From Gammaproteobacteria bacterium (GTDB lineage Bacteria; Pseudomonadota; Gammaproteobacteria; UBA4575), in NCBI GenBank assembly GCA_963662355.1, contig OY759361.1:1386265-1450264 (forward strand): 64,000 bases of DNA, in the 5' to 3' direction. The notes beneath the pieces are model-generated. The model ran no database searches, was not told the origin of the DNA, and saw nothing but the letters and a program-made list of their open reading frames with translations. Shown here in pieces: positions 5,548-58,992 of this stretch; position 1 is the stretch's first letter, and each line of letters starts with the position of its first letter. A program made the translations under genes and the position numbers.

Positions 5548-6405
5548 ATGACAAAGCATAGCGGGCCTATCTGCATTTCAGTAATAAACATGAAAGGTGG
5601 TGTGGGTAAAACAACTATTGCTGCATTGCTGGGACGATATGCATCTCTGCAGCGAGAACTGGATGTTCTAGCAATAGATTTGGATCCTCAAGCGAATCTT
5701 ACCCAGGCCTTTATGCGTGATCGCTATAAGGAGTTTTTAGACAACAAGCTTCCATCGATTGTGGAGCTCTTCCAAGGCCACTTGCCACCTGGCTCAAGAG
5801 GATCGTCACCATCATCGGTAGATGTGGGCGATGTTCTTGTCCGAAATACTCCACTTGGCGGTCCTAACCTGGAACTTATTCCGTCCAGATTTGATTTTTC
5901 CGACAATCTGATAGGCTCCGTTAGGCCTGATCCGAGAGTTCTCGCAAGATTTATTGTGGATGAGTTTCAGGATAAAGATATCATTTTGATTGATTGTGCT
6001 CCCACCGAATCCATTTTTACGCAAGCGGCCTATCATGCATCCCGATATATATTGGTGCCCGTGAAACCAGAGTATTTTGCCACTATAGGCTTTCCCTTAT
6101 TAAAAGATTCTTTAGATATGTTCCAACGTCGCAATCCTACACACGTAATTGACGTGGCGGGAATTGTCGTAAACAATTCAACCTATCACTACAGTGGAAA
6201 TCAAGGCGGCCCAGAAAGGTCCAGGGCTTTGTCGGAACTTACTGTGGAGGCAAGCCAAAACGATTGGAGAGTATTCAGAAAACAGATTCCCCATTCCAGA
6301 GGATTTCCAAAGATGATGAGGGGGGATTTCCGTCATCTTGGTGACGCCCCGCTGTTTTACCACTTTGCAAAGGAATTTTTTGAAACAATCCTGGGTGATG
6401 TGTAG
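5548..6405 (+). CDS. ParA/Soj/MinD-family P-loop ATPase
   Basis: Deviant Walker A INMKGGVGKTT, then DLDPQANLT, and a conserved Walker B-like IILIDCAP. Confidence 0.85.
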   Translation: MTKHSGPICISVINMKGGVGKTTIAALLGRYASLQRELDVLAIDLDPQANLTQAFMRDRYKEFLDNKLPSIVELFQGHLPPGSRGSSPSSVDVGDVLVRNTPLGGPNLELIPSRFDFSDNLIGSVRPDPRVLARFIVDEFQDKDIILIDCAPTESIFTQAAYHASRYILVPVKPEYFATIGFPLLKDSLDMFQRRNPTHVIDVAGIVVNNSTYHYSGNQGGPERSRALSELTVEASQNDWRVFRKQIPHSRGFPKMMRGDFRHLGDAPLFYHFAKEFFETILGDV

Positions 6406-8846: not shown

Positions 8847-9602
8847 ATGCCAAAATCATTATCACTAAAGCTTACTCCTTACATATTTATTGTAGGTATG
8901 ATCTTTTTATTCTTTGGTGCAAAGATGCCACCTACTATGTCATGGATGGGAATTAATTGGAGTAGCTTTCTTACTGATCTCGGGCTTTACATTGCTGTAG
9001 TAGTAGTTTTGCAATTTTATTACGACAAGCACATGAAACATGAGTTAATTTCGGAAGTTGCTGAATCGGCGCTTTCGAATTCAAATGTGGCTACATCAGG
9101 AATAAGTGATTTTGTCAATAACACAAAAAGAATTAACTATGAAACCATGCTCACTCATAGTGAAGAAATTACCGTTGGATTTTTACACAGTACTAGGTTT
9201 ATTGACGATCATGTATCTGAGCTTCGCAATAGGGTAAAAGAGGGTAAGAAAACATCTATCCTACTAGTGAATCCTGACGGACGCGTAGTCAGTTATCTAA
9301 CCAAGATTGTGCACGACAGTGATCATATTAAACCAGAAATTAAAAAAAACATTAATAAGGTAGGACAAATAAATAATGAGTCAGGTGTAAAAGAGAAAAT
9401 TACAATGAAATACCATGATGCCATTTTAAGGTATTCATTTGTTCATTCTATGGAAGGCACTTGGATTAAGATGTATAGAAATAGTCTTGGAATAGCAACA
9501 ACCCCAGGCATCTACATCAGGAATGGGTCACCGATGTATGATTTCTATAAGAAGGACATTGAAAACCTAAGAGAGGGAGCCCAAGATGTCACGTTTGGAT
9601 GA
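8847..9602 (+). CDS. hypothetical membrane-anchored protein (two N-terminal TM helices), AT-rich gene
   Basis: 251-aa ORF with strong RBS AGGAGAAG. Low GC. Overlaps the next ORF by 17 nt. Confidence 0.6.
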   Translation: MPKSLSLKLTPYIFIVGMIFLFFGAKMPPTMSWMGINWSSFLTDLGLYIAVVVVLQFYYDKHMKHELISEVAESALSNSNVATSGISDFVNNTKRINYETMLTHSEEITVGFLHSTRFIDDHVSELRNRVKEGKKTSILLVNPDGRVVSYLTKIVHDSDHIKPEIKKNINKVGQINNESGVKEKITMKYHDAILRYSFVHSMEGTWIKMYRNSLGIATTPGIYIRNGSPMYDFYKKDIENLREGAQDVTFG

Positions 9603-10667: not shown

Positions 10668-11828
10668 ATGTCTTACAGATACACTAATATTCGAATTGTT
10701 AATCCAAGTTTGGGTTTGGACAAGATTGTGTATAGACGGTTTTGGTTATGGTGGGCAGCACATGCTGCAGCAGAAGAAACTCTGCAAGGGGGGCCAATAA
10801 TTTCGGCTTGGTTAAAGTTATTTCAAACACATTTGAGTGACTCAGATGTTAGGAATTTACGTTGGCGGGACAATCTTGCAGGAAGCTCGGAGATGAGGCG
10901 GGCGTACTCTGCAATGTATGGTCGTTACTTTGGCCGTGCTTTTATAGCCAGCATGTTAGGAATAACAGATTTCGTTCCTCTTAGCTCAAAAGTTACTTCT
11001 ATAACAGGGGGAGTAACTGTAAGCCGAAAAACTAAGGGAGACATTCCTGATTGGATAGCATGGGACTCGGTAGCCAAATCTTATATTCTTGCAGAGGCAA
11101 AAGGCAGGTTGACCGGAAATGAGAAGAGTTTTTTGTACGGCATGCCTGCTTGTATTAAATCAGGTAAGGCTCAATTTGGAAGGGTAGAAGTTAGGGATTC
11201 ACACGCAAGAAAGATCAAAACGTGCAATTGGGTAGTAGCGAATCTCTGGGCTACCGAGAATCGAGGTAGAAGATCAGTTTCATTATTGTGGGACCCGGTT
11301 GAGAACGGAGAAAAACTCTTCGCTGAAGAAATACCACAACATGCAATTGCGATTCGCAGGCACCGTATAAAAAATATTGCGATGGGACTTGGGCGATCGA
11401 AGTTATTGCAGCTAGGCGCAAAGGAGACGGGGCTGACCTTACGTATATCTATAGAGCCATCGAAAGCTGGAGTGCTAGATTCTTTCACAGATGACATGTT
11501 ACTGGGGCTTTCTGAAAAGTTCGAGAGTACCAACCTTCCAGCAATTGAGAAGTCGTCTCAGGAACGACATGAAGATGTATACGTTGCTGCACTTATCACG
11601 CCTCTTGGAGTTCGCCCAATACTTGATTTATTAGATCTTGAAGCTGCACGTAATGTTCAAAGGCAGGTACGTAAGGCTAACGAAGCCGCTATGATTTATG
11701 GTCTTTCAACTAATGCACTGACGACATTGGAATACAATCAAGCGCTATGGTTGTCAGATGGTGGGATAGTTTCATCTGACGGAGCTGGCTTGTTTAATAT
11801 AAAAGAGATCGAATTTGACGAGTCATGA
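10668..11828 (+). CDS. hypothetical protein with candidate PD-(D/E)xK nuclease core
   Basis: 386-aa ORF. The motif DIPDWIAWD is followed after 13 aa by ILAEAKG, giving the PD ... ExK spacing typical of the restriction-endonuclease fold. Confidence 0.5.
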   Translation: MSYRYTNIRIVNPSLGLDKIVYRRFWLWWAAHAAAEETLQGGPIISAWLKLFQTHLSDSDVRNLRWRDNLAGSSEMRRAYSAMYGRYFGRAFIASMLGITDFVPLSSKVTSITGGVTVSRKTKGDIPDWIAWDSVAKSYILAEAKGRLTGNEKSFLYGMPACIKSGKAQFGRVEVRDSHARKIKTCNWVVANLWATENRGRRSVSLLWDPVENGEKLFAEEIPQHAIAIRRHRIKNIAMGLGRSKLLQLGAKETGLTLRISIEPSKAGVLDSFTDDMLLGLSEKFESTNLPAIEKSSQERHEDVYVAALITPLGVRPILDLLDLEAARNVQRQVRKANEAAMIYGLSTNALTTLEYNQALWLSDGGIVSSDGAGLFNIKEIEFDES

Positions 11829-50682: not shown

Positions 50683-53553
50683 CTACGAGGCTATGGTCAA
50701 ATCTGGTGTACTGTCACTGCTTGGAAAGTGATTGGAAAAAATCTGTTTCAAGTATTGGCCGGTAAATGATTTTTTTGAAAAGGCGACTTTTTCCGGTGGC
50801 CCAACTGCGATAACTTGGCCACCCCGGTTACCTCCTTCAGGACCCAAATCGATAATCCAGTCAGCAGTTTTGACAATATCAAGGTTATGTTCGATGACTA
50901 TGATTGTATTTCCCTGGTCTCGCAAATAATGCAATACATTCAATAGCTGTTCGACGTCATGAAAATGAAGACCTGTAGTGGGCTCGTCCAGTAAATAAAG
51001 TGTTTTTCCAGTACTGCGCTTGGATAATTCTCGTGACAGTTTCACGCGCTGGGCTTCCCCACCTGACAATGTTGTAGCACTTTGCCCCAATGTGATGTAC
51101 GAGAGGCCAACGTCCATCAATGTTTGCAATCTGCGTTTGACAACAGGAATTGCTTCAAAAAAAATGAAAGCATCTTCAACGGTCATTTCCAGTACTTGGT
51201 GGATATTTTTGCCTTTGTAACGTATTTCCAGTGTTTCACGATTGTAGCGTTTTCCTTGACATACATCGCACGGAACAAAAATATCCGGCAGAAAGTGCAT
51301 TTCCACTTTGATTACACCGTCCCCACGGCATGCTTCACAGCGGCCACCTTTAACATTGAAGCTGAAGCGGCCTGGTGCATAGCCGCGTGACCGCGCTTCA
51401 GGGATGTTTGCAAACAGTTCACGTATGGGGGTGAACAGACCTGTGTACGTGGCAGGGTTGGAGCGAGGAGTGCGTCCGATTGGGTTCTGGTCAATGTCCA
51501 CCACCTTGTCAATTTGTTCCAGTCCCTGAATTTCAGTGCATGCTGCAGGAAGAGTGCCAGAGTTGTGTAGATAGCGCATGCAATACCTGTACAAAGTGTC
51601 ATTCACCAAAGTCGATTTTCCTGAACCGGAAACGCCCGTTACTACTGTCATTAATCCCAAAGGAATACTTACTGTAATATCCTGCAGGTTGTTGCCGTGT
51701 GCCTGAATGACCCTGATGGCTTTATTCTTTTGGAATGGCAGGCGAATCTTCGGTAGCGGAATCGTGCGTTTTCCAGACAGGTATTGTCCGGTCAGTGAGG
51801 CTGGATTTTTTTCAATCTCAGTCGGCGTGCCTTGAGCTACAAGCCTGCCACCATGAATGCCTGCCCCTGGTCCCATGTCAACAACATGGTCAGCACTTCG
51901 TATCGCTTCTTCGTCATGCTCAACCACAATCACGGTATTACCGAGGTCCCGCAGGTAGTACAGAGTTTTGATAAGGCGTCTGTTGTCACGCTGGTGCAGA
52001 CCTATTGAGGGTTCATCCAGTATGTACATGACACCTGTCAGTCCCGAGCCAATCTGGCTGGCAAGTCGGATACGTTGTAATTCTCCGCCCGATAATGTAT
52101 CTGCTGTACGATCGAGAGCCAGATAGTCTAGGCCGACATTCACAAGAAACCCAAGGCGTTGCATGATTTCATGGATGATTTTTTCACCAACCGTGACAAG
52201 ATGGCCGGAAAGGCTGAGGCTGCTAAAGAAGTCAAGCGCATCTTCCGTAGACCATGAAGTGACTGTCGGGAGATTGTAGTTATTGATGAATACGTGGCGT
52301 GCTTCGGTGTTTAACCGGTCGCCGTTGCATGCCTGGCAAACCTGTGTTGTAAGGAATTTGCTTAGTTCTTCACGAACAGCACTTGATCCGGTTTCATGGA
52401 AACGCCGTTCCATGTTGGGAATAATGCCTTCGAATGTGTGCAGGCGCAGATAGGACTTTCCTTTTTCATTCGTGTATTTGAACTGAATCACTTCATCTTC
52501 GCTGCCGTACAAAATGATGTCCCTGATTTTTTTATCCAGTTCGCCCCAGGGGATCTCGATTTCAAATCCGTAATGCCTTGCAAGTGATTGAATTAAATTA
52601 AAGTAATATGGATTTCTCCGGTCCCAGCCACGAATTGCACCTCCAGCCAAGCTGATTTTTTGATTCATGATCACGAGCTCAGGGTCAAAAAACTCCTCCA
52701 CACCCAGACCATCACACGCTGAGCATGCGCCCATCGGGTTATTGAAAGAAAAAAGTCGAGGCTCCAGTTCACTCAAGCTGTAACCGCATTTTGGGCATGC
52801 AAATTTTGCCGAGAACACCAGTTCAACTTCACCAGGGTTGTCCATTGACTGGACAATGGCTATACCGTCGGCAAGTTTGAGTGCTGTCTCAAAAGATTCC
52901 GCCAGCCGAAGCCTCATATCTTCCCTCACTTTAAATCTGTCCACGATGACTTCAATCGTGTGCTTGCGCCTCAGCCCAAGCTTGGGTACCACGTCCAGTT
53001 CGTATACTTCGTTGTCAATGCGTGCACGGGAAAAGCCTTGGGCTTGTAGCCTTGCTAAAACCTGTGCATGTTCACCTTTGCGGTTTTGTATGATAGGTGC
53101 CAGAAGCATCAGTTTTTTTCCGTTTTCCAATGACAAGACTTTGTCCACCATCTGACTGATAGTTTGTGTATGCAGGTCGATGTGATGGGTTGGACAGCGT
53201 GGTATACCGGCACGTGCATAAAGCAGGCGGAGATAGTCATTGATTTCAGTGATGGTCCCGACCGTTGACCGCGGATTGTGCGAGCTTGATTTTTGTTCGA
53301 TGGAAATGGAAGGTGACAATCCGTCAATGGAATCTATGTCTGGCTTTTCCATGCGTGCCAGGAACTGACGCGCATAGGCCGACAGAGATTCGACGTATCT
53401 GCGCTGGCCTTCCGCAAAAATCGTATCAAAAGCTAGTGATGACTTCCCTGAGCCTGATAGGCCTGTAATGACAATAAGTTCATCGCGAGGAATGTCAATA
53501 TCGATATTTTGAAGATTATGTGTCCGTGCACCCCGGATGCTGATTTGTTTCAT
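50683..53553 (-). CDS. uvrA: excinuclease ABC subunit UvrA
   Basis: [65 protein letters not shown], duplicated ABC ATPase modules, and zinc-finger cysteines. A GTG 21 nt upstream (53574) is an alternative start. Confidence 0.96.
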
Positions 53554-53946
53554 AATTTCAATTGTGGCCGACACAATAAATCAATGCACGTGTTTGCTCA
53601 CCCGGGATGCAAAGCATGAGTATTCTAAGCTTCAGAAATAACTTGTTACACGCTGGATTATATATGATTGTGCCGGTACGAGAGTGTGTTGAACGTTTTT
53701 GACATCGTGTCGTGATGTAATAGATGTGATTACAAACACGGGTGTGGGCAAGGATACTAGCCATAGTATATTGCACAAACGAATGTTACAGGTCTGTATG
53801 CCAGTATGATGCGTAACTTGGTCACGTGAAGCTGAACGTTTGAGACTTTTGAGCTAATCGGGATAACTGCCCTTGCAGCACTGTTTTTGCTGCTTGTGTA
53901 CTGGGAAGGCTCCCGCAGGCTTGAAGTTGAAGGTCACATAAGCAGG

Positions 53947-54840
53947 CTACACAGCACGCATGGAAGGATGGAAAACCTGTTTCAGCACGGAATTGATGCG
54001 TTTGCGCACACTGAATCCGCCTGAACTCCAAAAGCTCAATACATACCACCAGTACGCTTTGTATTCTTCTCCCAGGTATAGCTGCAGCAGCTTTTGTCGT
54101 GAGAGTCCGCACACGCTCAATCTGACCAAACATTTCAGATCAAAAAACCGTTTCAAAGCTTTCGGCAAGGTGCGGGCAGATGTACAACGGTCATTGTCGA
54201 TCAAAGTGAATCTTGCGTTATTGATGTTCTCTGTACCGAGTTCGGTTACATCTTGATAGTTCAAGTTGGTCAAAATGTTTCCGCCATGCGGGTCATCGTG
54301 ACGGATGTTGGCTGCATGAATTTTCTTGACGATTTCAACGCATCGAATAGCGATTGTGTTGACCAGTTCATCCTTGTTGGGCCCGTTGGATTGGTCGATG
54401 TTGTTGCACAGTTCAGATACGGTAAGCTTATCCTCAACTTTTTGATATAGGATGTAACTTTTACGATTTAGCCATGACCGCTTGAAGGTCCAGTAGGCAA
54501 TCGGTTTGATTGTGTCGACGTTGGCATGGTGCAGACGCATGCTGCCAATATAGCTTCTATAGTTATAATCCTTGAACAAGCTTGTAATGAAAAGATTTAC
54601 TTTTCTTCGAAACCTGTAGTCCTCACTGATCTGGGAAACCTTCATGATCACATTGCAGCCAGTCGGCAAATAGTAGAAGCAATACAGCTTGTTTCGTTTT
54701 CTACTTTTCTTGCCAAGCAGCAATTCGGTTGTTTCGCATTTGAGGAAGTGTTTGTCCTGTATCCATTGCTCCGTCAATTTATGTGACGGAAAGGCCTTGC
54801 TAGTCAGGAGTTTTCCATGTGAATAGGTCTGCTTATTCAC
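53947..54840 (-). CDS. lipopolysaccharide kinase (Kdo/WaaP/InaA) family protein kinase-fold protein
   Basis: The motif KIHAANIRHDDPHGGNIL matches the family's catalytic loop (H.GD..GN(I/L)). GTG start. Confidence 0.65.
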   Translation of the reverse strand: MNKQTYSHGKLLTSKAFPSHKLTEQWIQDKHFLKCETTELLLGKKSRKRNKLYCFYYLPTGCNVIMKVSQISEDYRFRRKVNLFITSLFKDYNYRSYIGSMRLHHANVDTIKPIAYWTFKRSWLNRKSYILYQKVEDKLTVSELCNNIDQSNGPNKDELVNTIAIRCVEIVKKIHAANIRHDDPHGGNILTNLNYQDVTELGTENINNARFTLIDNDRCTSARTLPKALKRFFDLKCLVRLSVCGLSRQKLLQLYLGEEYKAYWWYVLSFWSSGGFSVRKRINSVLKQVFHPSMRAV

Positions 54841-54841
54841 T

Positions 54842-54872
54842 TTGTAGGCTGCTTTTCCAGGTGGGCTATAAT
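54842..54872 (+). promoter_or_regulatory. candidate sigma70 promoter (TTGTAG-19-TATAAT) in the divergent kinase-kinase spacer
   Basis: TTGTAG at 54842-54847 and TATAAT at 54867-54872. The 19-nt spacing is sub-optimal. Confidence 0.25.
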
Positions 54873-54949
54873 GGCGTAATAGGTGCTGGGGGATACGAGT
54901 TGAATTTTACAGCTTTGCCTGTACGAGTTCAAAAAATGCCTATTTTGCT

Positions 54950-55636
54950 ATGGTCATATTCAAGAACATGAACACTTTAAAGGCACTTGAGATTGAGTTG
55001 CAACAGGATCTTATTTTGCCGGATGAAGTACAGGTAACAGGCTTTCTTGGGAGAGGCAGACGCTCTTTTTCCTACAAGGGTGAATACAACAGAAAGGATG
55101 TCGTTATCAAGGTATATCGAAAAGAGTTTATCGAAAAGTATCGCAGAAAATGCAATATTGACATTGCTGAATTTGAGTTTGAACGCAATTCTATTTTGTA
55201 TGCCATTGATGCGATAAGACCCTACATTGCTATTCCGTACAAGAAATTTCCACACGGCAGCGGCTTTACACATTCGTTTGTACAAGAGTATGTGGATGGC
55301 ATCACGCTCAAGCAGTTGATTTTCAGGTCAGGGTATCTCCCTGAGGAAGTTTTAGCGGCCGGCTATGAGATTGTCAGGTCTGCTGAAGCATATGGAGTAC
55401 ATGATATAGATATCAGTATGGCAAACATTATAGTGATTCAAAGGAAGGGAGTTTGGATGCCCAGGCTGTATGATTTCAATATACTGCCACAGCATATGAG
55501 CCCCCCCAATCCGTTTATAGCATTCGGTATCAAAGCGGGCTTGTGCAAAAAGTCGCGCAGGGACTATAGGAGTCTGAGGAGCTGGAAACGGGCAGGAGAA
55601 CAGCAACAACTGTCTGGAACAGCTGTGAGGGACTAG
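54950..55636 (+). CDS. small protein-kinase-fold protein (Kdo/WaaP- or RIO-like)
   Basis: Gly-rich loop GRGRRSFSYKG plus VVIKVYRK (candidate ATP-binding Lys), VHDIDISMANIIV (an HxD...N catalytic loop), and LYDFN (DFG-like). Confidence 0.6.
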   Translation: MVIFKNMNTLKALEIELQQDLILPDEVQVTGFLGRGRRSFSYKGEYNRKDVVIKVYRKEFIEKYRRKCNIDIAEFEFERNSILYAIDAIRPYIAIPYKKFPHGSGFTHSFVQEYVDGITLKQLIFRSGYLPEEVLAAGYEIVRSAEAYGVHDIDISMANIIVIQRKGVWMPRLYDFNILPQHMSPPNPFIAFGIKAGLCKKSRRDYRSLRSWKRAGEQQQLSGTAVRD

Positions 55637-55792
55637 TTGCCATAGACCTTGGTTGTCCTGTCGTTCATAACTGACTGCATTTGTATATTATTTGTTCAAA
55701 ATTTGTGGGGAATCCAATTTTAAATATGCTCTGCTTGATATTTTCGTAAAATACAACGGAGCCCTTATAAATACATCCAACAGGACATTGAA

Positions 55793-56227
55793 ATGGCAAG
55801 AGGCATAAACAAAGCGATATTGATTGGTCATCTTGGGCAGAACCCCGAGGTGAAGTACACGCCAAGCGGCCAGGCCGTATGCAATATTAGCGTGGCTACG
55901 ACTGAATCTTGGAATGATAAGAATACAGGTGAAAAAGTAGAGAGAACTGAGTGGCACCGTGTAGTGTTTTTTCGCAGGTTGGCAGAAATTGCAGGTGAGT
56001 ACCTGAGAAAAGGTTCACAGGTCTATGTGGAAGGAAGATTACAAACCCGCAAATGGCAGGACCAAGGCGGTAATGAACGCTACACTACTGAAATTGTTGC
56101 CAACGATATGCAGATGCTGGGCAGCAAGGGGAGTACAACGACAATGCAAGAGGTCCCGAAATCAGATTCGGGACAAGCCACTGCCAACTCACCAGCTGAT
56201 GATTTTGACGACGATATTCCTTTCTAG
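55793..56227 (+). CDS. ssb: single-stranded DNA-binding protein
   Basis: [29 protein letters not shown]...TEWHRVVFF... and an acidic C-terminal tail ending DDDIPF. Confidence 0.96.
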
Positions 56228-56451
56228 ACAGTGGCCAGATACATAAAGAAGAAATTTAATCGCACTTGATTTAGCCTGACTTGCTTAAGCCTGGGCCTAG
56301 GCTCTTAGTTCTGGCTGGAATCTGCTTGGAAATTCCAGACATGATACCCAGTGATGCATTGGGCTGCAGTTTTGGGGTTGTTACAGGCTTGGCTCGTGAG
56401 AAAAATTACAAGCACTGAATGTGCTTTGGGTGGAGATAGATTGACCGGCGA

Positions 56452-57276
56452 CTATATTGCTTCACCTGGTCTGCACAAAATATCGTAGTGCTGCCACTCA
56501 TCAAGGTTTTCTTCGGTTACAAGAGGTCCTGTACCAATTGGTTCTTCGGTTATCTTGTATACACGGTAGCCAAGGTCCAGAAAGAAAGAGAGCAGATTTT
56601 TGCGGTATGTACTGTCAGTATTTTTGAAGACTTCGGCCTTGATAATCGGTTTGTAGGCCCTGATTATGTCGTGGATAGACTCCAAAACATGCAGGTCATA
56701 GCCTTCTGTATCCACCTTGATGAATTTCAATCGTGGCAGCATTTCGGAGTAATCTTCAAACAGCTCTTTTTTCAAATTCACACAGAATACTTCTAATTTA
56801 AATGGGTGCCCATGCTTGATAGTAGGAATTCCTTCGTGGCGACCACCGTTGCAAAAGCCGGCATCGGAATACTCGAATTCCATGAATCCTTCAGTGGAAG
56901 TTGCTGCAGCCATCATTGTATTTATGTTGACAATATGAGTATTTGTTCGAGCATTTTTCTCTAGAACATGGTAAACGAATGGGTTGGGCTCAAGTGCTAA
57001 AACGCAGCCGCTATTCCCTACGGCAAGGGCCATGGGCATCGTTGAGTCTCCTGTATGTGCACCTATATCAATGCAGAAATCTCCTTCCTCTAGAATTTTT
57101 TGATATGTCTCGACCTCTTGGGCCGTCACTGTTTTTTTTGCTTCATTGCGATGTGGGTGTAACCATCGTGCGAAATGAACAGTTGTATCTCCTAAATGCA
57201 CATCACGGATTTGGTAAGCATAGTGGCTGGATTTCCCACGAAAACCCAAAAATTGAAACATGTTTTTGATTTTCAT
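56452..57276 (-). CDS. FkbM-family methyltransferase
   Basis: IDIGAHTGDSTMPMALAV...ALEPNP...IKVDTEGYDLHVLES, the typical FkbM-domain blocks. Confidence 0.7.
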   Translation of the reverse strand: MKIKNMFQFLGFRGKSSHYAYQIRDVHLGDTTVHFARWLHPHRNEAKKTVTAQEVETYQKILEEGDFCIDIGAHTGDSTMPMALAVGNSGCVLALEPNPFVYHVLEKNARTNTHIVNINTMMAAATSTEGFMEFEYSDAGFCNGGRHEGIPTIKHGHPFKLEVFCVNLKKELFEDYSEMLPRLKFIKVDTEGYDLHVLESIHDIIRAYKPIIKAEVFKNTDSTYRKNLLSFFLDLGYRVYKITEEPIGTGPLVTEENLDEWQHYDILCRPGEAI

Positions 57277-57657
57277 GATTTTTTGCGTTCAGAATCTGGT
57301 CCGGATGGATCCATGGATACCTCAGGTTAACTATTTTAGCAGGCTATCGAAACGGGAGTATATCCCGTGAAGCGGAACTCGGTTGATGATTAGCTTGATA
57401 CGGAATCAGCAACGGTTCAGAGGACTTGTTGGCAATCGTAGGGCAATGGCATGGTTTCAGCTTTGAGTTTTACCTCATTTTTGAAAAGCTCGTAATCATG
57501 ATCCAATCAAATTATACGAATGTAGATCTCATTTTTTTGATGACTAAGGTCAATTAACTGCTTGCAATGATCATCCCGACTGGCTTCAAGGTGCAGTCAG
57601 GAATTATACTGAGAATCCCGTACACTGAAGATGTAGATCTTACTTAACAAAATCTCG

Positions 57658-58992
57658 ATGTCGAAGAAAGTATTTGTCAAAACACAGGGCTGCCAGATGA
57701 ACGAGTATGATTCTGCGAGGATGCTTGACGTACTGCGCAGCGAATGCGGTTTTGATGTCACCGCCGATTTGTCCAAGGCTGATGTGTTATTGCTCAACAC
57801 ATGCTCAATTCGTGAAAAGGCACAGGAAAAGGTGTTTTCACAGTTAGGGCAATGGCGGCCATTGAAAGAAAAAAACCCAGGTGTCTTGATCGGTGTAGGG
57901 GGTTGTGTAGCCAGCCAAGAAGGCGATGCCTTGGCTGCACGCGCGAAACACGTGGATGTGGTATTTGGCCCCCAGACGATTCACCGGCTGCCGGAGCTAT
58001 TGAGGCAGGCGGCAGAAGACAAGGAAGTGGTCGTCGATATCTCTTTTCCGGAAATGGAAAAGTTTGACTGTTTACCCGAGCCTCGACACAGTGGCCCGGT
58101 CGCCCTTGTTTCAATAATGGAGGGCTGCAGCAAATATTGCACGTATTGCGTAGTGCCTTATACCCGTGGAGAGGAGTTCAGCAGACCGCTGGAGAATGTA
58201 CTGGATGAAATCGGGTTGCTGGCTCAAAAAGGTGTGCGTGAGGTTACGTTGCTGGGGCAGAATGTGAACGGGTACCGCGGGCTTGACCGGCAGGGGGAGA
58301 TAGCGGATTTTTCCCTGTTACTTTACTATGTAAGCAATATCGAAGGCATCGAGCGTATCCGGTATACTAGCTCTCACCCCGTAGAATTTTCGGACAACCT
58401 GATTAATGCGTATGCGGAGGTTCCTGAGCTGGTGAACCACGTGCATTTGCCGGTGCAAAGTGGCTCAGACAGGGTATTGTCTGCTATGAAGCGTGGGTAC
58501 ACGGCACTGGAGTATAAGTCCATAATAAAAAAATTGCGCAAGCACCGACCTGATATCAGCATTTCATCAGATTTCATCGTCGGGTTTCCTGGTGAAACGG
58601 ATCAGGATTTTGAGGAGACAGTGAATTTTGTGAAAGAGGTTGGTTTTGATCAGTCTTTCAGTTTCATCTACAGCACAAGGCCCGGAACTCCTGCTGCATT
58701 CCTAGAAGATCTTGTTACACAGGACGTGAAAAAATACAGGCTGCAGCGTCTGCAGGAAATCATTCGCGATGCATCCAGCACTCATTCACAAGCGATGCTG
58801 GGGACCGATCAGGTGGTGCTGGTCGAAGGGCACTCAAAGAAGTCGTCCCTTGAGTATTCAGGAAGAACCGAAAATAATCGTGTAGTCAATTTTGAGGCAC
58901 CTGGTAATGTGATCGGTAAGTTCGTTCGTCTCGGGATTACTGATGTGTTTTCAAATTCGTTGCGAGGCGTTTATCATGAAACACTCTCCTAG
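57658..58992 (+). CDS. miaB: tRNA-2-methylthio-N6-dimethylallyladenosine synthase MiaB
   Basis: [22 protein letters not shown]..., radical-SAM CxxxCxxC (CSKYCTYC), and a TRAM domain. Confidence 0.95.

What the first reader, a model, noticed from the sequence alone, without database searches (positions are those of the whole stretch)
53554..55792. Two paralogous Kdo/WaaP-like kinase-fold genes inserted divergently between uvrA and ssb
From established knowledge, uvrA and ssb are usually directly divergent and share an SOS-regulated intergenic region. Here about 2.2 kb is inserted, carrying a minus-strand LPS-kinase-family gene (HAANIRHDDPHGGNIL) and a plus-strand small kinase-fold gene (GRGRRSFSYKG, VVIKVYRK, HDIDISMANI, YDFN). 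The two face away from each other over a 109-nt spacer with a TATAAT box. Both are moderately AT-rich. Their substrate (LPS core phosphorylation versus protein or small-molecule kinase) is unknown. Their position within the uvrA-ssb control region raises the possibility of SOS-linked expression.
Basis: partly seen in the sequence, partly recalled or inferred. Interest (0 to 1): 0.5.

Follow-up and report, generated by a model that had tools for sequence, protein, structure and literature searches.

The report
Relocated LPS-core kinase gene pair
Two unrelated kinase genes that sit in the lipopolysaccharide-core gene cluster in related marine bacteria have moved, with their own promoters, into the gap between the DNA-repair genes uvrA and ssb in this sponge-associated bacterium; this looks like an ordinary rearrangement, not a DNA-damage-controlled system.

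Summary
Intact genes lie at 53947-54840 (-) and 54950-55636 (+) between uvrA and ssb, with the quoted motifs and a 109-nt spacer holding TATAAT.

Two parts of the interpretation fail:
- The genes are not paralogues (BLASTP E 0.17; profile-profile probability 1.3%).
- No SOS link is visible.

What the genes are:
- Gene B belongs to a small family with no Pfam model. It has a minimal protein-kinase-like fold with invariant catalytic residues.

Where they came from:
- Of 49 related genomes, none has uvrA or ssb nearby.
- 38 of the 49 hold the genes among LPS inner-core genes (WaaA, KdkA, heptosyltransferase, WaaL, HldE).
- A close relative has uvrA and ssb 174 nt apart.

So the pair moved here. 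It brought its conserved back-to-back promoter spacer and landed between the uvrA and ssb promoters. A linked FkbM methyltransferase sits just beyond ssb.

The genes are under purifying selection (dN/dS 0.09-0.16). They most likely phosphorylate core sugars of LPS; this is inferred from context and fold and was not tested. Interest is modest. The one new item is the gene B family and its repeated link with methyltransferases.

The parts
50683..53553 (-). uvrA (956 aa from the ATG at 53553; an alternative GTG lies at 53574)
   Evidence: Pfam UvrA_inter, UvrA_DNA-bind. Homologues are 99-70% identical.
53554..53633 (.). uvrA-proximal part of the old uvrA|ssb spacer, presumed to hold uvrA's own promoter
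   Evidence: It aligns with the uvrA-proximal spacer of L077, L076 and L078, with invariant AAT..ACGTG and GCAAA blocks.
53634..53946 (.). Junction DNA between the uvrA promoter region and the gene A stop codon; no homology found
   Evidence: blastn homology to L074 and L075 stops at about 53955-53978. No LexA-like site with 1 mismatch or fewer. No minus-strand terminator-like site.
53947..54840 (-). Gene A: divergent Kdo/WaaP-family kinase, a putative LPS core sugar kinase
54841..54949 (.). Divergent promoter spacer that travels with the pair. TATAAT at 54867-54872 (+) for gene B; TTGAAC-17-TAAAAT at 54932-54904 (-) for gene A
   Evidence: The spacer and both -10-like boxes are conserved in L074, L075, L009, L014 and other loci, whatever the genomic location.
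54950..55636 (+). Gene B: minimal protein-kinase-like enzyme of a small unnamed family, a putative glycan/LPS kinase
55658..55673 (+). Single LexA-box-like site, CTGTCGTTCATAACTG, with 1 mismatch; probably a chance match
   Evidence: Not conserved in the L077 or L076 spacers. The window-wide count equals chance expectation.
55725..55792 (+). ssb-proximal part of the old spacer, presumed to hold ssb's own promoter (-10 TAAAAT)
   Evidence: It aligns with the L077 and L076 ssb-proximal spacer, block TTCTGCTTCATTATTTCGTAGAATA.
55793..56227 (+). ssb
   Evidence: Pfam SSB. The block 55616-56471 is absent between gene B and FkbM in L074 and L075.
56452..57276 (-). FkbM-family methyltransferase, third gene of the relocated module
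   Evidence: Pfam Methyltransf_21, TIGR01444. It lies directly next to gene B in L074, L075 and L013. It is 74% identical to FkbM genes inside the waa clusters of L009, L011, L012, L015 and L016. dN/dS 0.11-0.12.
57658..58992 (+). miaB, the ancestral neighbour of ssb
   Evidence: ssb-miaB adjacency is seen in L077.

Best explanation
Genes A and B are two non-paralogous ATP-dependent kinases of lipopolysaccharide inner-core assembly.

In most related uncultured marine Gammaproteobacteria they sit back to back inside the core (waa) cluster. The order there is HldE - [WaaL] - A(-) | B(+) - conserved membrane protein - [FkbM methyltransferase(s)] - DUF6165 - heptosyltransferase - KdkA - WaaA.

In the lineage of this sponge (Aplysina aerophoba)-associated bacterium, a three-gene piece (A, B, FkbM) left that cluster. 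It now occupies the uvrA-ssb-miaB region, with A and B between uvrA and ssb and FkbM between ssb and miaB.

The pair brought its own 109-nt divergent promoter region. The uvrA and ssb core promoters remain at the outer edges and point away from the kinases.

Inferred mechanism: at the cytoplasmic face of the inner membrane, gene A (WaaP-like) transfers phosphate from ATP to a core heptose of nascent lipid A-core. Gene B adds a second phosphate to a core or other glycan sugar. The FkbM enzyme methylates a sugar or a phosphate. The added negative charge would stabilise the outer membrane through divalent-cation bridges.

Shown: gene integrity, kinase folds, conserved catalytic residues, synteny, relocation, purifying selection.
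Inferred: substrates, phosphorylated positions, and promoter use.
For: Fold and family:

Context:
- Of 49 species-level loci with gene B at 40% identity or more, 38 hold waa genes within 8 kb and 36 hold KdkA. In 24, gene A is adjacent and divergent; in 10 it lies farther away. None has uvrA or ssb.
- KdkA is confirmed as an NCBIfam equivalog, 238 bits against a cut-off of 142. WaaA, GT9, Wzy_C and HldE are confirmed by Pfam.

Relocation:
- The ancestral arrangement rplQ-SAM hydrolase-uvrA|ssb-miaB has a 174-nt spacer in L077.
- Both spacer ends are conserved in the window.
- The A-B spacer is conserved across locations.
- The A-B-FkbM module is seen in L074 and L075.

Selection: dN/dS is 0.08-0.16.

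Precedent: P. aeruginosa has several core kinases in one waa cluster, waaP, wapP, wapQ and PA5006 (PMC3147165).
Against: - No biochemical evidence exists for either protein.
- Gene A scores far below the RfaP (30 against 170 bits) and KdkA (19 against 142 bits) equivalog cut-offs, so its substrate may differ from heptose I.
- In some loci (L030, L037) gene B sits among GT2/GT4 glycosyltransferases and methyltransferases, not inner-core genes. It may therefore act on outer core or O-polysaccharide.
- I could not check whether the rest of the waa cluster exists in this organism.
- The order of events that put ssb between B and FkbM is unresolved.
Confidence: 0.68

Rival explanations
1. Gene B and the neighbouring FkbM methyltransferase form a split kinase/methyltransferase pair that works like WbdD. 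Gene B phosphorylates a terminal sugar and the methyltransferase methylates that phosphate or sugar. This would cap or terminate a glycan, not decorate the inner core.
For: - Distant gene B homologues in Acidobacteriota and in some Gammaproteobacteria are the C-terminal domain of 440-509-aa proteins. These carry an N-terminal class I SAM methyltransferase domain (L058, L059, P0148, P0170).
- Gene B lies next to a methyltransferase gene in L074, L075, L013, L030 and L037, and near one or two in L009-L016.
- WbdD has the same domain order, MTase 1-210 then kinase 211-459, and makes a methyl-phosphate cap (PMC3482155).
Against: - WbdD matches the fusion proteins only weakly and only in the SAM-binding part (E about 1e-4). 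The kinase domains show no specific similarity.
- The window's methyltransferase is FkbM-type (Methyltransf_21), not the Methyltransf_11/25 type of the fusions.
- In most gammaproteobacterial loci gene B is flanked by inner-core genes.
- In the window, ssb separates B from FkbM.
Confidence: 0.15
2. Gene B (and possibly gene A) is a protein Ser/Thr kinase used in signalling, or a eukaryote-like effector of a sponge symbiont, and is unrelated to LPS.
For: - 20 of 27 family members give weak Pfam Pkinase hits, best E 9.8e-9.
- The top structural neighbours are RIO and Hanks-type protein kinases.
- The organism is sponge-associated: the exact gene is in the Aplysina aerophoba metagenome MKWU01.
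- One distant homologue carries a response-regulator receiver domain (P0161).
Against: - The fold is truncated after the DFG-equivalent, with no activation segment and no αF-αI substrate-binding lobe, as in small-molecule and minimal kinases.
- The neighbourhood is LPS or glycan genes in 38 of 49 loci, from sediment and seawater as well as sponges.
- No secretion signal or secretion-system context was seen.
Confidence: 0.1
3. One reading: placement within the uvrA-ssb control region puts the kinases under LexA/SOS control.
For: - The genes do lie between two classically SOS-regulated genes.
- One 1-mismatch CTGT-N8-ACAG site lies at 55658-55673.
- Transcription of gene A could read through into uvrA, and transcription of gene B into ssb.
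Against: - The site is downstream of gene B, is not conserved in relatives, and such sites occur at chance frequency.
- No site lies in the A-B spacer or the uvrA-A spacer.
- The kinases are transcribed away from each other, from a spacer that is conserved in waa-cluster copies.
- The repair genes' promoters face away from the kinases.
- Only the E. coli-type box was tested; the LexA motif of this clade is unknown.
Confidence: 0.04
4. The genes are decaying remnants of a broken waa cluster with no current function.
For: - They are detached from the rest of the cluster.
- The lineage shows many rearrangements and mobile elements (L075 has integrase and IS21 genes nearby).
- An extra copy of gene A in L013 appears frameshifted.
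Against: - Both reading frames are full length with all catalytic residues.
- dN/dS is 0.09-0.16 between the three lineages that carry the relocated module.
- Identical genes were recovered from five independent assemblies.
Confidence: 0.03

Closest known systems
WaaP (RfaP) LPS core heptose(I) kinase, e.g. P. aeruginosa WaaP, PDB 6DFL
   Different: Only about 15% identity. It scores 30 bits against the RfaP equivalog cut-off of 170. It has a 48-residue N-terminal extension and extra C-terminal helices. Substrate and position are unknown.
Multi-kinase inner-core clusters: P. aeruginosa waaP-wapP-wapQ-PA5006 and E. coli/Salmonella WaaP + WaaY
   Same: Several distinct kinase genes sit in one core-biosynthesis cluster. 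Here these are KdkA, gene A and gene B. The presumed role is the same: adding phosphates that stabilise the outer membrane (PMC3147165).
   Different: Gene B is not a Kdo/WaaP or WaaY family member by sequence. The genes are arranged back to back, not in one operon. In this organism two of them are detached from the cluster.
WbdD, the bifunctional methyltransferase-kinase of E. coli O9a (PDB 4AZS)
   Same: Distant gene B homologues have the same domain order, an N-terminal SAM methyltransferase followed by a protein-kinase-like domain. Gene B is repeatedly linked to methyltransferase genes in glycan clusters.
   Different: No specific sequence similarity in the kinase domain. There is no coiled-coil tail. 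In the window the two activities are separate genes and the methyltransferase is FkbM-type.
RIO, Bud32, and OspG/NleH minimal kinases
   Different: The biological context is different (ribosome maturation, tRNA modification, host effectors). The resemblance is at fold level only.

Membership tests
Pfam PF06293 Kdo/WaaP lipopolysaccharide kinase family (gene A) | Score above the curated gathering threshold | tested here: met
   30.6 bits against 21.3; residues 102-240 match profile positions 67-188 of 207.
Pfam PF06293 Kdo/WaaP lipopolysaccharide kinase family (gene A) | Conserved ATP-binding Lys, catalytic HxDxxxxN loop and metal-binding Asp | tested here: met
   K67, H181, D183, N188, D215 and D217 are invariant or nearly so in 28 homologues.
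Pfam PF06293 Kdo/WaaP lipopolysaccharide kinase family (gene A) | WaaP-like three-dimensional fold | tested here: met
WaaP/RfaP equivalog (NCBIfam NF011703), heptose(I) 4-O-kinase | Score above the equivalog cut-off | tested here: not met
   30.4 bits against 170.
KdkA equivalog (NCBIfam NF002475), Kdo kinase | Score above the equivalog cut-off | tested here: not met
   Gene A scores 19.2 bits against 142. A separate true KdkA (238 bits) exists in the relatives' clusters.
LPS core kinase (functional class), genes A and B | ATP-dependent phosphorylation of a core sugar on lipid A-core | not testable with these tools
   Only gene context is available: 38 of 49 loci lie in waa clusters.
Pfam PF06293 Kdo/WaaP or PF06176 WaaY (gene B) | Any match to the family model | tested here: not met
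   No Pfam hit at E<=1. The KdkA profile against the gene B profile gives 21% probability.
Protein-kinase-like superfamily (gene B) | Bilobal kinase fold with Lys, Glu, catalytic Asp/Asn and a DFG-like Asp | tested here: met
Pfam PF00069 Pkinase (gene B) | Score above the gathering threshold | tested here: inconclusive
   The window protein has no hit. 20 of 27 homologues give weak hits, best E 9.8e-9.
WbdD-type methyltransferase-kinase | N-terminal SAM methyltransferase fused to a kinase domain | tested here: not met
   This is not the case in the window, where the genes are separate. It holds only for distant homologues L058, L059, P0148 and P0170.
WbdD-type methyltransferase-kinase | Specific sequence similarity to the WbdD kinase domain | tested here: not met
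   WbdD matches only the methyltransferase part, at E about 1e-4. It is absent from the kinase-domain matches.
SOS (LexA) regulon | LexA box in the promoter region of the gene | tested here: not met
   No site with 1 mismatch or fewer in the A-B or uvrA-A spacers. One non-conserved 1-mismatch site lies downstream of gene B. Only the E. coli-type motif was tested.
Paralogous gene pair (A and B) | Significant pairwise or profile similarity | tested here: not met
   BLASTP E 0.17. hhalign probability 1.3%.
Mobile element or genomic island | Flanking repeats, integrase or transposase | tested here: not met
   Only short, chance-level repeats in 53400-57700. No integrase in the window's region. L075 has integrase and IS21 genes near its copy.

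The most novel reading that the evidence does not exclude
Gene B represents an unrecognised family of minimal glycan kinases. These would work together with a methyltransferase, fused in Acidobacteriota and split in these Gammaproteobacteria, to install a methyl-phosphate or similar cap on LPS core or another surface glycan. That would extend WbdD-type chemistry to a structurally distinct kinase and to core oligosaccharide.
Probability: 0.15. Interest if true: 0.55.

Novelty: new variant of a known kind. Interest (0 to 1): 0.3.

Why it matters
It turns a puzzling pair of 'kinases in the SOS control region' into a case of gene-cluster fragmentation. This warns against reading regulation from position alone.

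It also gives a small, unannotated kinase family (gene B) a testable role in LPS or surface-glycan modification, together with a recurrent methyltransferase partner.

The uvrA|ssb spacer holds different cargo in three of four related genomes. That makes it a candidate insertion hot spot in this clade of small-genome marine and sponge-associated Gammaproteobacteria. LPS decoration may matter for recognition of symbionts by sponges, but nothing here tests that.

Tried and rejected
- Paralogy of A and B: rejected.
- SOS control: the LexA-box scan is at chance level, and the one site is neither conserved nor upstream of the kinases.
- Mobile-element signature: no meaningful direct or inverted repeats flank the insertion. 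No Rfam RNA lies in the region.
- The 239-aa gene that follows gene B in waa clusters as a third kinase: rejected. It has no similarity to the kinase profiles, and its sequence looks membrane-like.
- Sequence searches of PDB with both family profiles gave only weak, generic kinase hits. Structure prediction was needed.
- WbdD orthology of the fused homologues: not supported beyond the SAM-binding motif.
- The AFDB fold library was unavailable.
- I could not locate the remaining waa genes of this organism. The window's 5' half holds unrelated genes (TonB receptor, M19 dipeptidase, ParA-like ATPase, several ORFs with no family).
Full report
**What is in the sequence**

- uvrA is on the minus strand and ends at 53553 (ATG start) or 53574 (alternative GTG).
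- Gene A is a 297-aa ORF at 53947-54840 (-).
- A 109-nt spacer follows (54841-54949), with TATAAT at 54867-54872.
- Gene B is a 228-aa ORF at 54950-55636 (+).
- ssb starts at 55793, then comes an FkbM-family methyltransferase (56452-57276, -) and miaB.

All quoted peptide motifs are present. G+C is slightly lower over the two genes (0.40-0.46) than over uvrA (0.47-0.50).

The exact gene A product is encoded on five independent assemblies with the same neighbours. These include GCA_026713925.1 and GCA_001753035.1. The latter has accession prefix MKWU01, which two papers give as the Aplysina aerophoba sponge metagenome. The host is therefore an uncultured sponge-associated gammaproteobacterium.

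**The two proteins**

*Gene A*
- It passes the Pfam Kdo/WaaP threshold (30.6 against 21.3 bits).
- It falls far below the NCBIfam equivalog cut-offs for RfaP (30 against 170) and KdkA (19 against 142).
- In 28 homologues, K67, H181, D183, D215 and D217 are invariant.
- A model built from that alignment is confident (pLDDT 89.4).

*Gene B*
- It matches no Pfam or NCBIfam family.
- Its alignment shows an invariant Gly-rich loop, K54, E76, D154-x4-N159 and D175 in the YDFN motif.
- Its model (pLDDT 87.3) is a truncated protein-kinase-like fold.
- The family is small. In 1.84 billion cluster representatives, 322 match at E<=1e-3, 76 at E<=1e-10 and 34 at E<=1e-30.

*Relationship between A and B*
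- BLASTP gives E 0.17, and profile against profile gives 1.3% probability.
- A KdkA profile, by contrast, matches gene A at 86% probability.
- 'Paralogous' is therefore not supported. The two share only the superfamily fold.

**Where the genes normally live**

A scan of one genome per species with the gene B alignment returned 65 loci. I then ran tblastn on them with reference proteins. Among the 49 loci with gene B at 40% identity or more:
- 38 contain LPS inner-core genes within 8 kb, and 36 contain KdkA.
- 24 have gene A adjacent and divergent; 10 have it a few kb away.
- None has uvrA or ssb.

The usual order is HldE - [WaaL] - A(-) | B(+) - a conserved 239-aa protein - DUF6165 - GT9 heptosyltransferase - KdkA - WaaA.

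KdkA is a true equivalog, at 238 bits against a cut-off of 142. The 239-aa protein is not a kinase. In the relatives closest to the window (L009, L011, L012, L015, L016), one or two FkbM methyltransferase genes lie in the same cluster. One of them is 74% identical to the window's FkbM.

**How the pair came to lie between uvrA and ssb**

I looked at the neighbourhoods of UvrA homologues.
- In L077 (85% identity) the clade's plain arrangement is rplQ - SAM hydrolase - uvrA | ssb - miaB - phoH - ybeY. uvrA and ssb are divergent and 174 nt apart.
- The window has the same backbone, plus A and B between uvrA and ssb, and FkbM between ssb and miaB.
- The first ~60 nt next to uvrA and the last ~65 nt next to ssb align with the L077 and L076 spacers. 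The insertion therefore sits between the two genes' own promoter-proximal regions.
- Closer relatives of the kinases carry FkbM-B-A as a compact three-gene module. L074 is 75% identical and has the module next to miaB. L075 is 73% identical and has it among integrase and IS21 genes. Neither has ssb in between.
- blastn homology to these loci covers 53955-55615 and 56472-57283 and skips the ssb block.

The exact order of events is unresolved. It could be two insertions, or one insertion followed by movement of ssb. No flanking repeats or integrase mark the window's insertion.

The same spacer holds other cargo in related genomes. L076 has a 6-kb stretch with two Fic-domain genes and a DUF4238 gene. 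L078 has two small ORFs. The site therefore seems prone to insertions in this clade.

**Regulation**

The 109-nt A-B spacer aligns across relatives, whether the pair is in a waa cluster or relocated. This includes the plus-strand TATAAT and a minus-strand TTGAAC-17-TAAAAT. The pair therefore carries its own back-to-back promoter candidates.

E. coli-type LexA boxes (CTGT-N8-ACAG, up to 1 mismatch) occur 24 times in the window, against 23.2 expected. None lies in the uvrA-A or A-B spacers. The one site at 55658-55673 is downstream of gene B, lies outside the conserved ssb-proximal block, and is absent from the relatives' spacers.

The geometry also argues against SOS control of the kinases. The uvrA and ssb promoters point away from them. 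Read-through from the kinases into the repair genes is possible but untested. One caveat: the LexA motif of this clade is unknown.

**Are the genes still functional?**

Both reading frames are full length and keep all catalytic residues. Between the window, L074 and L075, dN/dS is 0.09-0.16 for A, B and FkbM. Decay is unlikely.

**Most likely function**

The inference rests on fold, catalytic residues and conserved neighbourhood. Gene A is a WaaP-like core-sugar kinase. Gene B is a second glycan or LPS kinase of a new sequence family. [quoted passage not shown] P. aeruginosa offers a precedent for several kinases in one core cluster: waaP, wapP, wapQ and PA5006 (PMC3147165). Substrates and positions were not shown here.

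**A less ordinary possibility**

Gene B is repeatedly linked to methyltransferases.
- It is adjacent to FkbM genes in L074, L075 and L013.
- It is adjacent to Methyltransf_11 genes in L030 and L037, among GT2 and GT4 glycosyltransferases.
- In distant homologues (L058, L059, P0148, P0170) it is fused behind an N-terminal class I SAM methyltransferase domain.

This is the domain order of WbdD, which phosphorylates and then methylates the terminal mannose of the E. coli O9a O-antigen (PMC3482155). However, WbdD matches these fusions only weakly and only in the SAM-binding part. The resemblance is architectural, and orthology is not shown. I give this reading about 15%.

**Verdict**

The insertion is real. 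The SOS idea is not supported. The substrate question is pushed toward LPS or surface glycan. This is a relocated fragment of an LPS core cluster. The only new element is the unannotated gene B kinase family and its link with methyltransferases.

Noticed in passing
L076:857-7000, L078:6204-7000 and L078:4501-5499: In related genomes the uvrA|ssb spacer holds other cargo. L076 has about 6 kb with two Fic-domain genes, a DUF4238 gene and several unnamed ORFs. L078 has two small ORFs of 87 and 89 aa, plus an epimerase gene between ssb and miaB. The spacer looks like an insertion hot spot in this clade.
   Followed up: partly
L058:7176-8705, L059:7218-8618; proteins P0148, P0170: Distant gene B homologues (30-34% identity; Acidobacteriota such as Sulfomarinibacter, and some Gammaproteobacteria) form the C-terminal domain of 440-509-aa proteins. 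These have an N-terminal Methyltransf_25/11 domain. In L059 the neighbours are a PfkB sugar kinase gene and a GH2 glycoside hydrolase gene.
   Followed up: partly
L009:8675-9382, L006:4465-5184 (about 40 loci): A conserved protein of about 235 aa directly follows gene B in waa clusters. It has no Pfam or NCBIfam match and carries a strongly conserved AGEEISWGQH...NDQGETNLHN motif. Its sequence looks membrane-like. It is missing from the relocated module in the window, L074 and L075.
   Followed up: partly
L006:4079-4468 and equivalents: A DUF6165 gene is conserved next to the GT9 heptosyltransferase in these waa clusters (36 loci). This suggests an unrecognised role in core assembly.
   Followed up: no
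L056:7368-7946: In a Pseudomonadales MAG, a YrbL/PhoP-regulatory-network gene (PF10707, 156 bits) lies directly upstream of the gene B homologue.
   Followed up: no
L013, L015, L053 (genome CBDBDH01): One MAG carries two to three copies of the pair. One copy is in the waa cluster (L015). One lies elsewhere, next to FkbM and GT2 genes, and its gene A appears frameshifted (L013). One is a partial gene B (L053).
   Followed up: no
proteins P0161 and P0125: Two odd fusions occur in the gene B family. P0161 (263 aa) has a response-regulator receiver domain in front of the kinase domain. P0125 (492 aa) has an N-terminal part with a sub-threshold MFS match and may be a gene-calling artefact.
   Followed up: no
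window:1247-4086, 8847-9602, 10668-11828; 5548-6405: Several sizeable ORFs in the 5' part of the window have no Pfam family. They lie near a ParA/AAA_31-type ATPase gene (5548-6405).
   Followed up: no
window:49830-50600: A SAM hydroxide adenosyltransferase/SAM hydrolase family gene (SAM_HAT_N and SAM_HAT_C domains) lies between rplQ and uvrA. It holds this position in all four related genomes examined.
   Followed up: no
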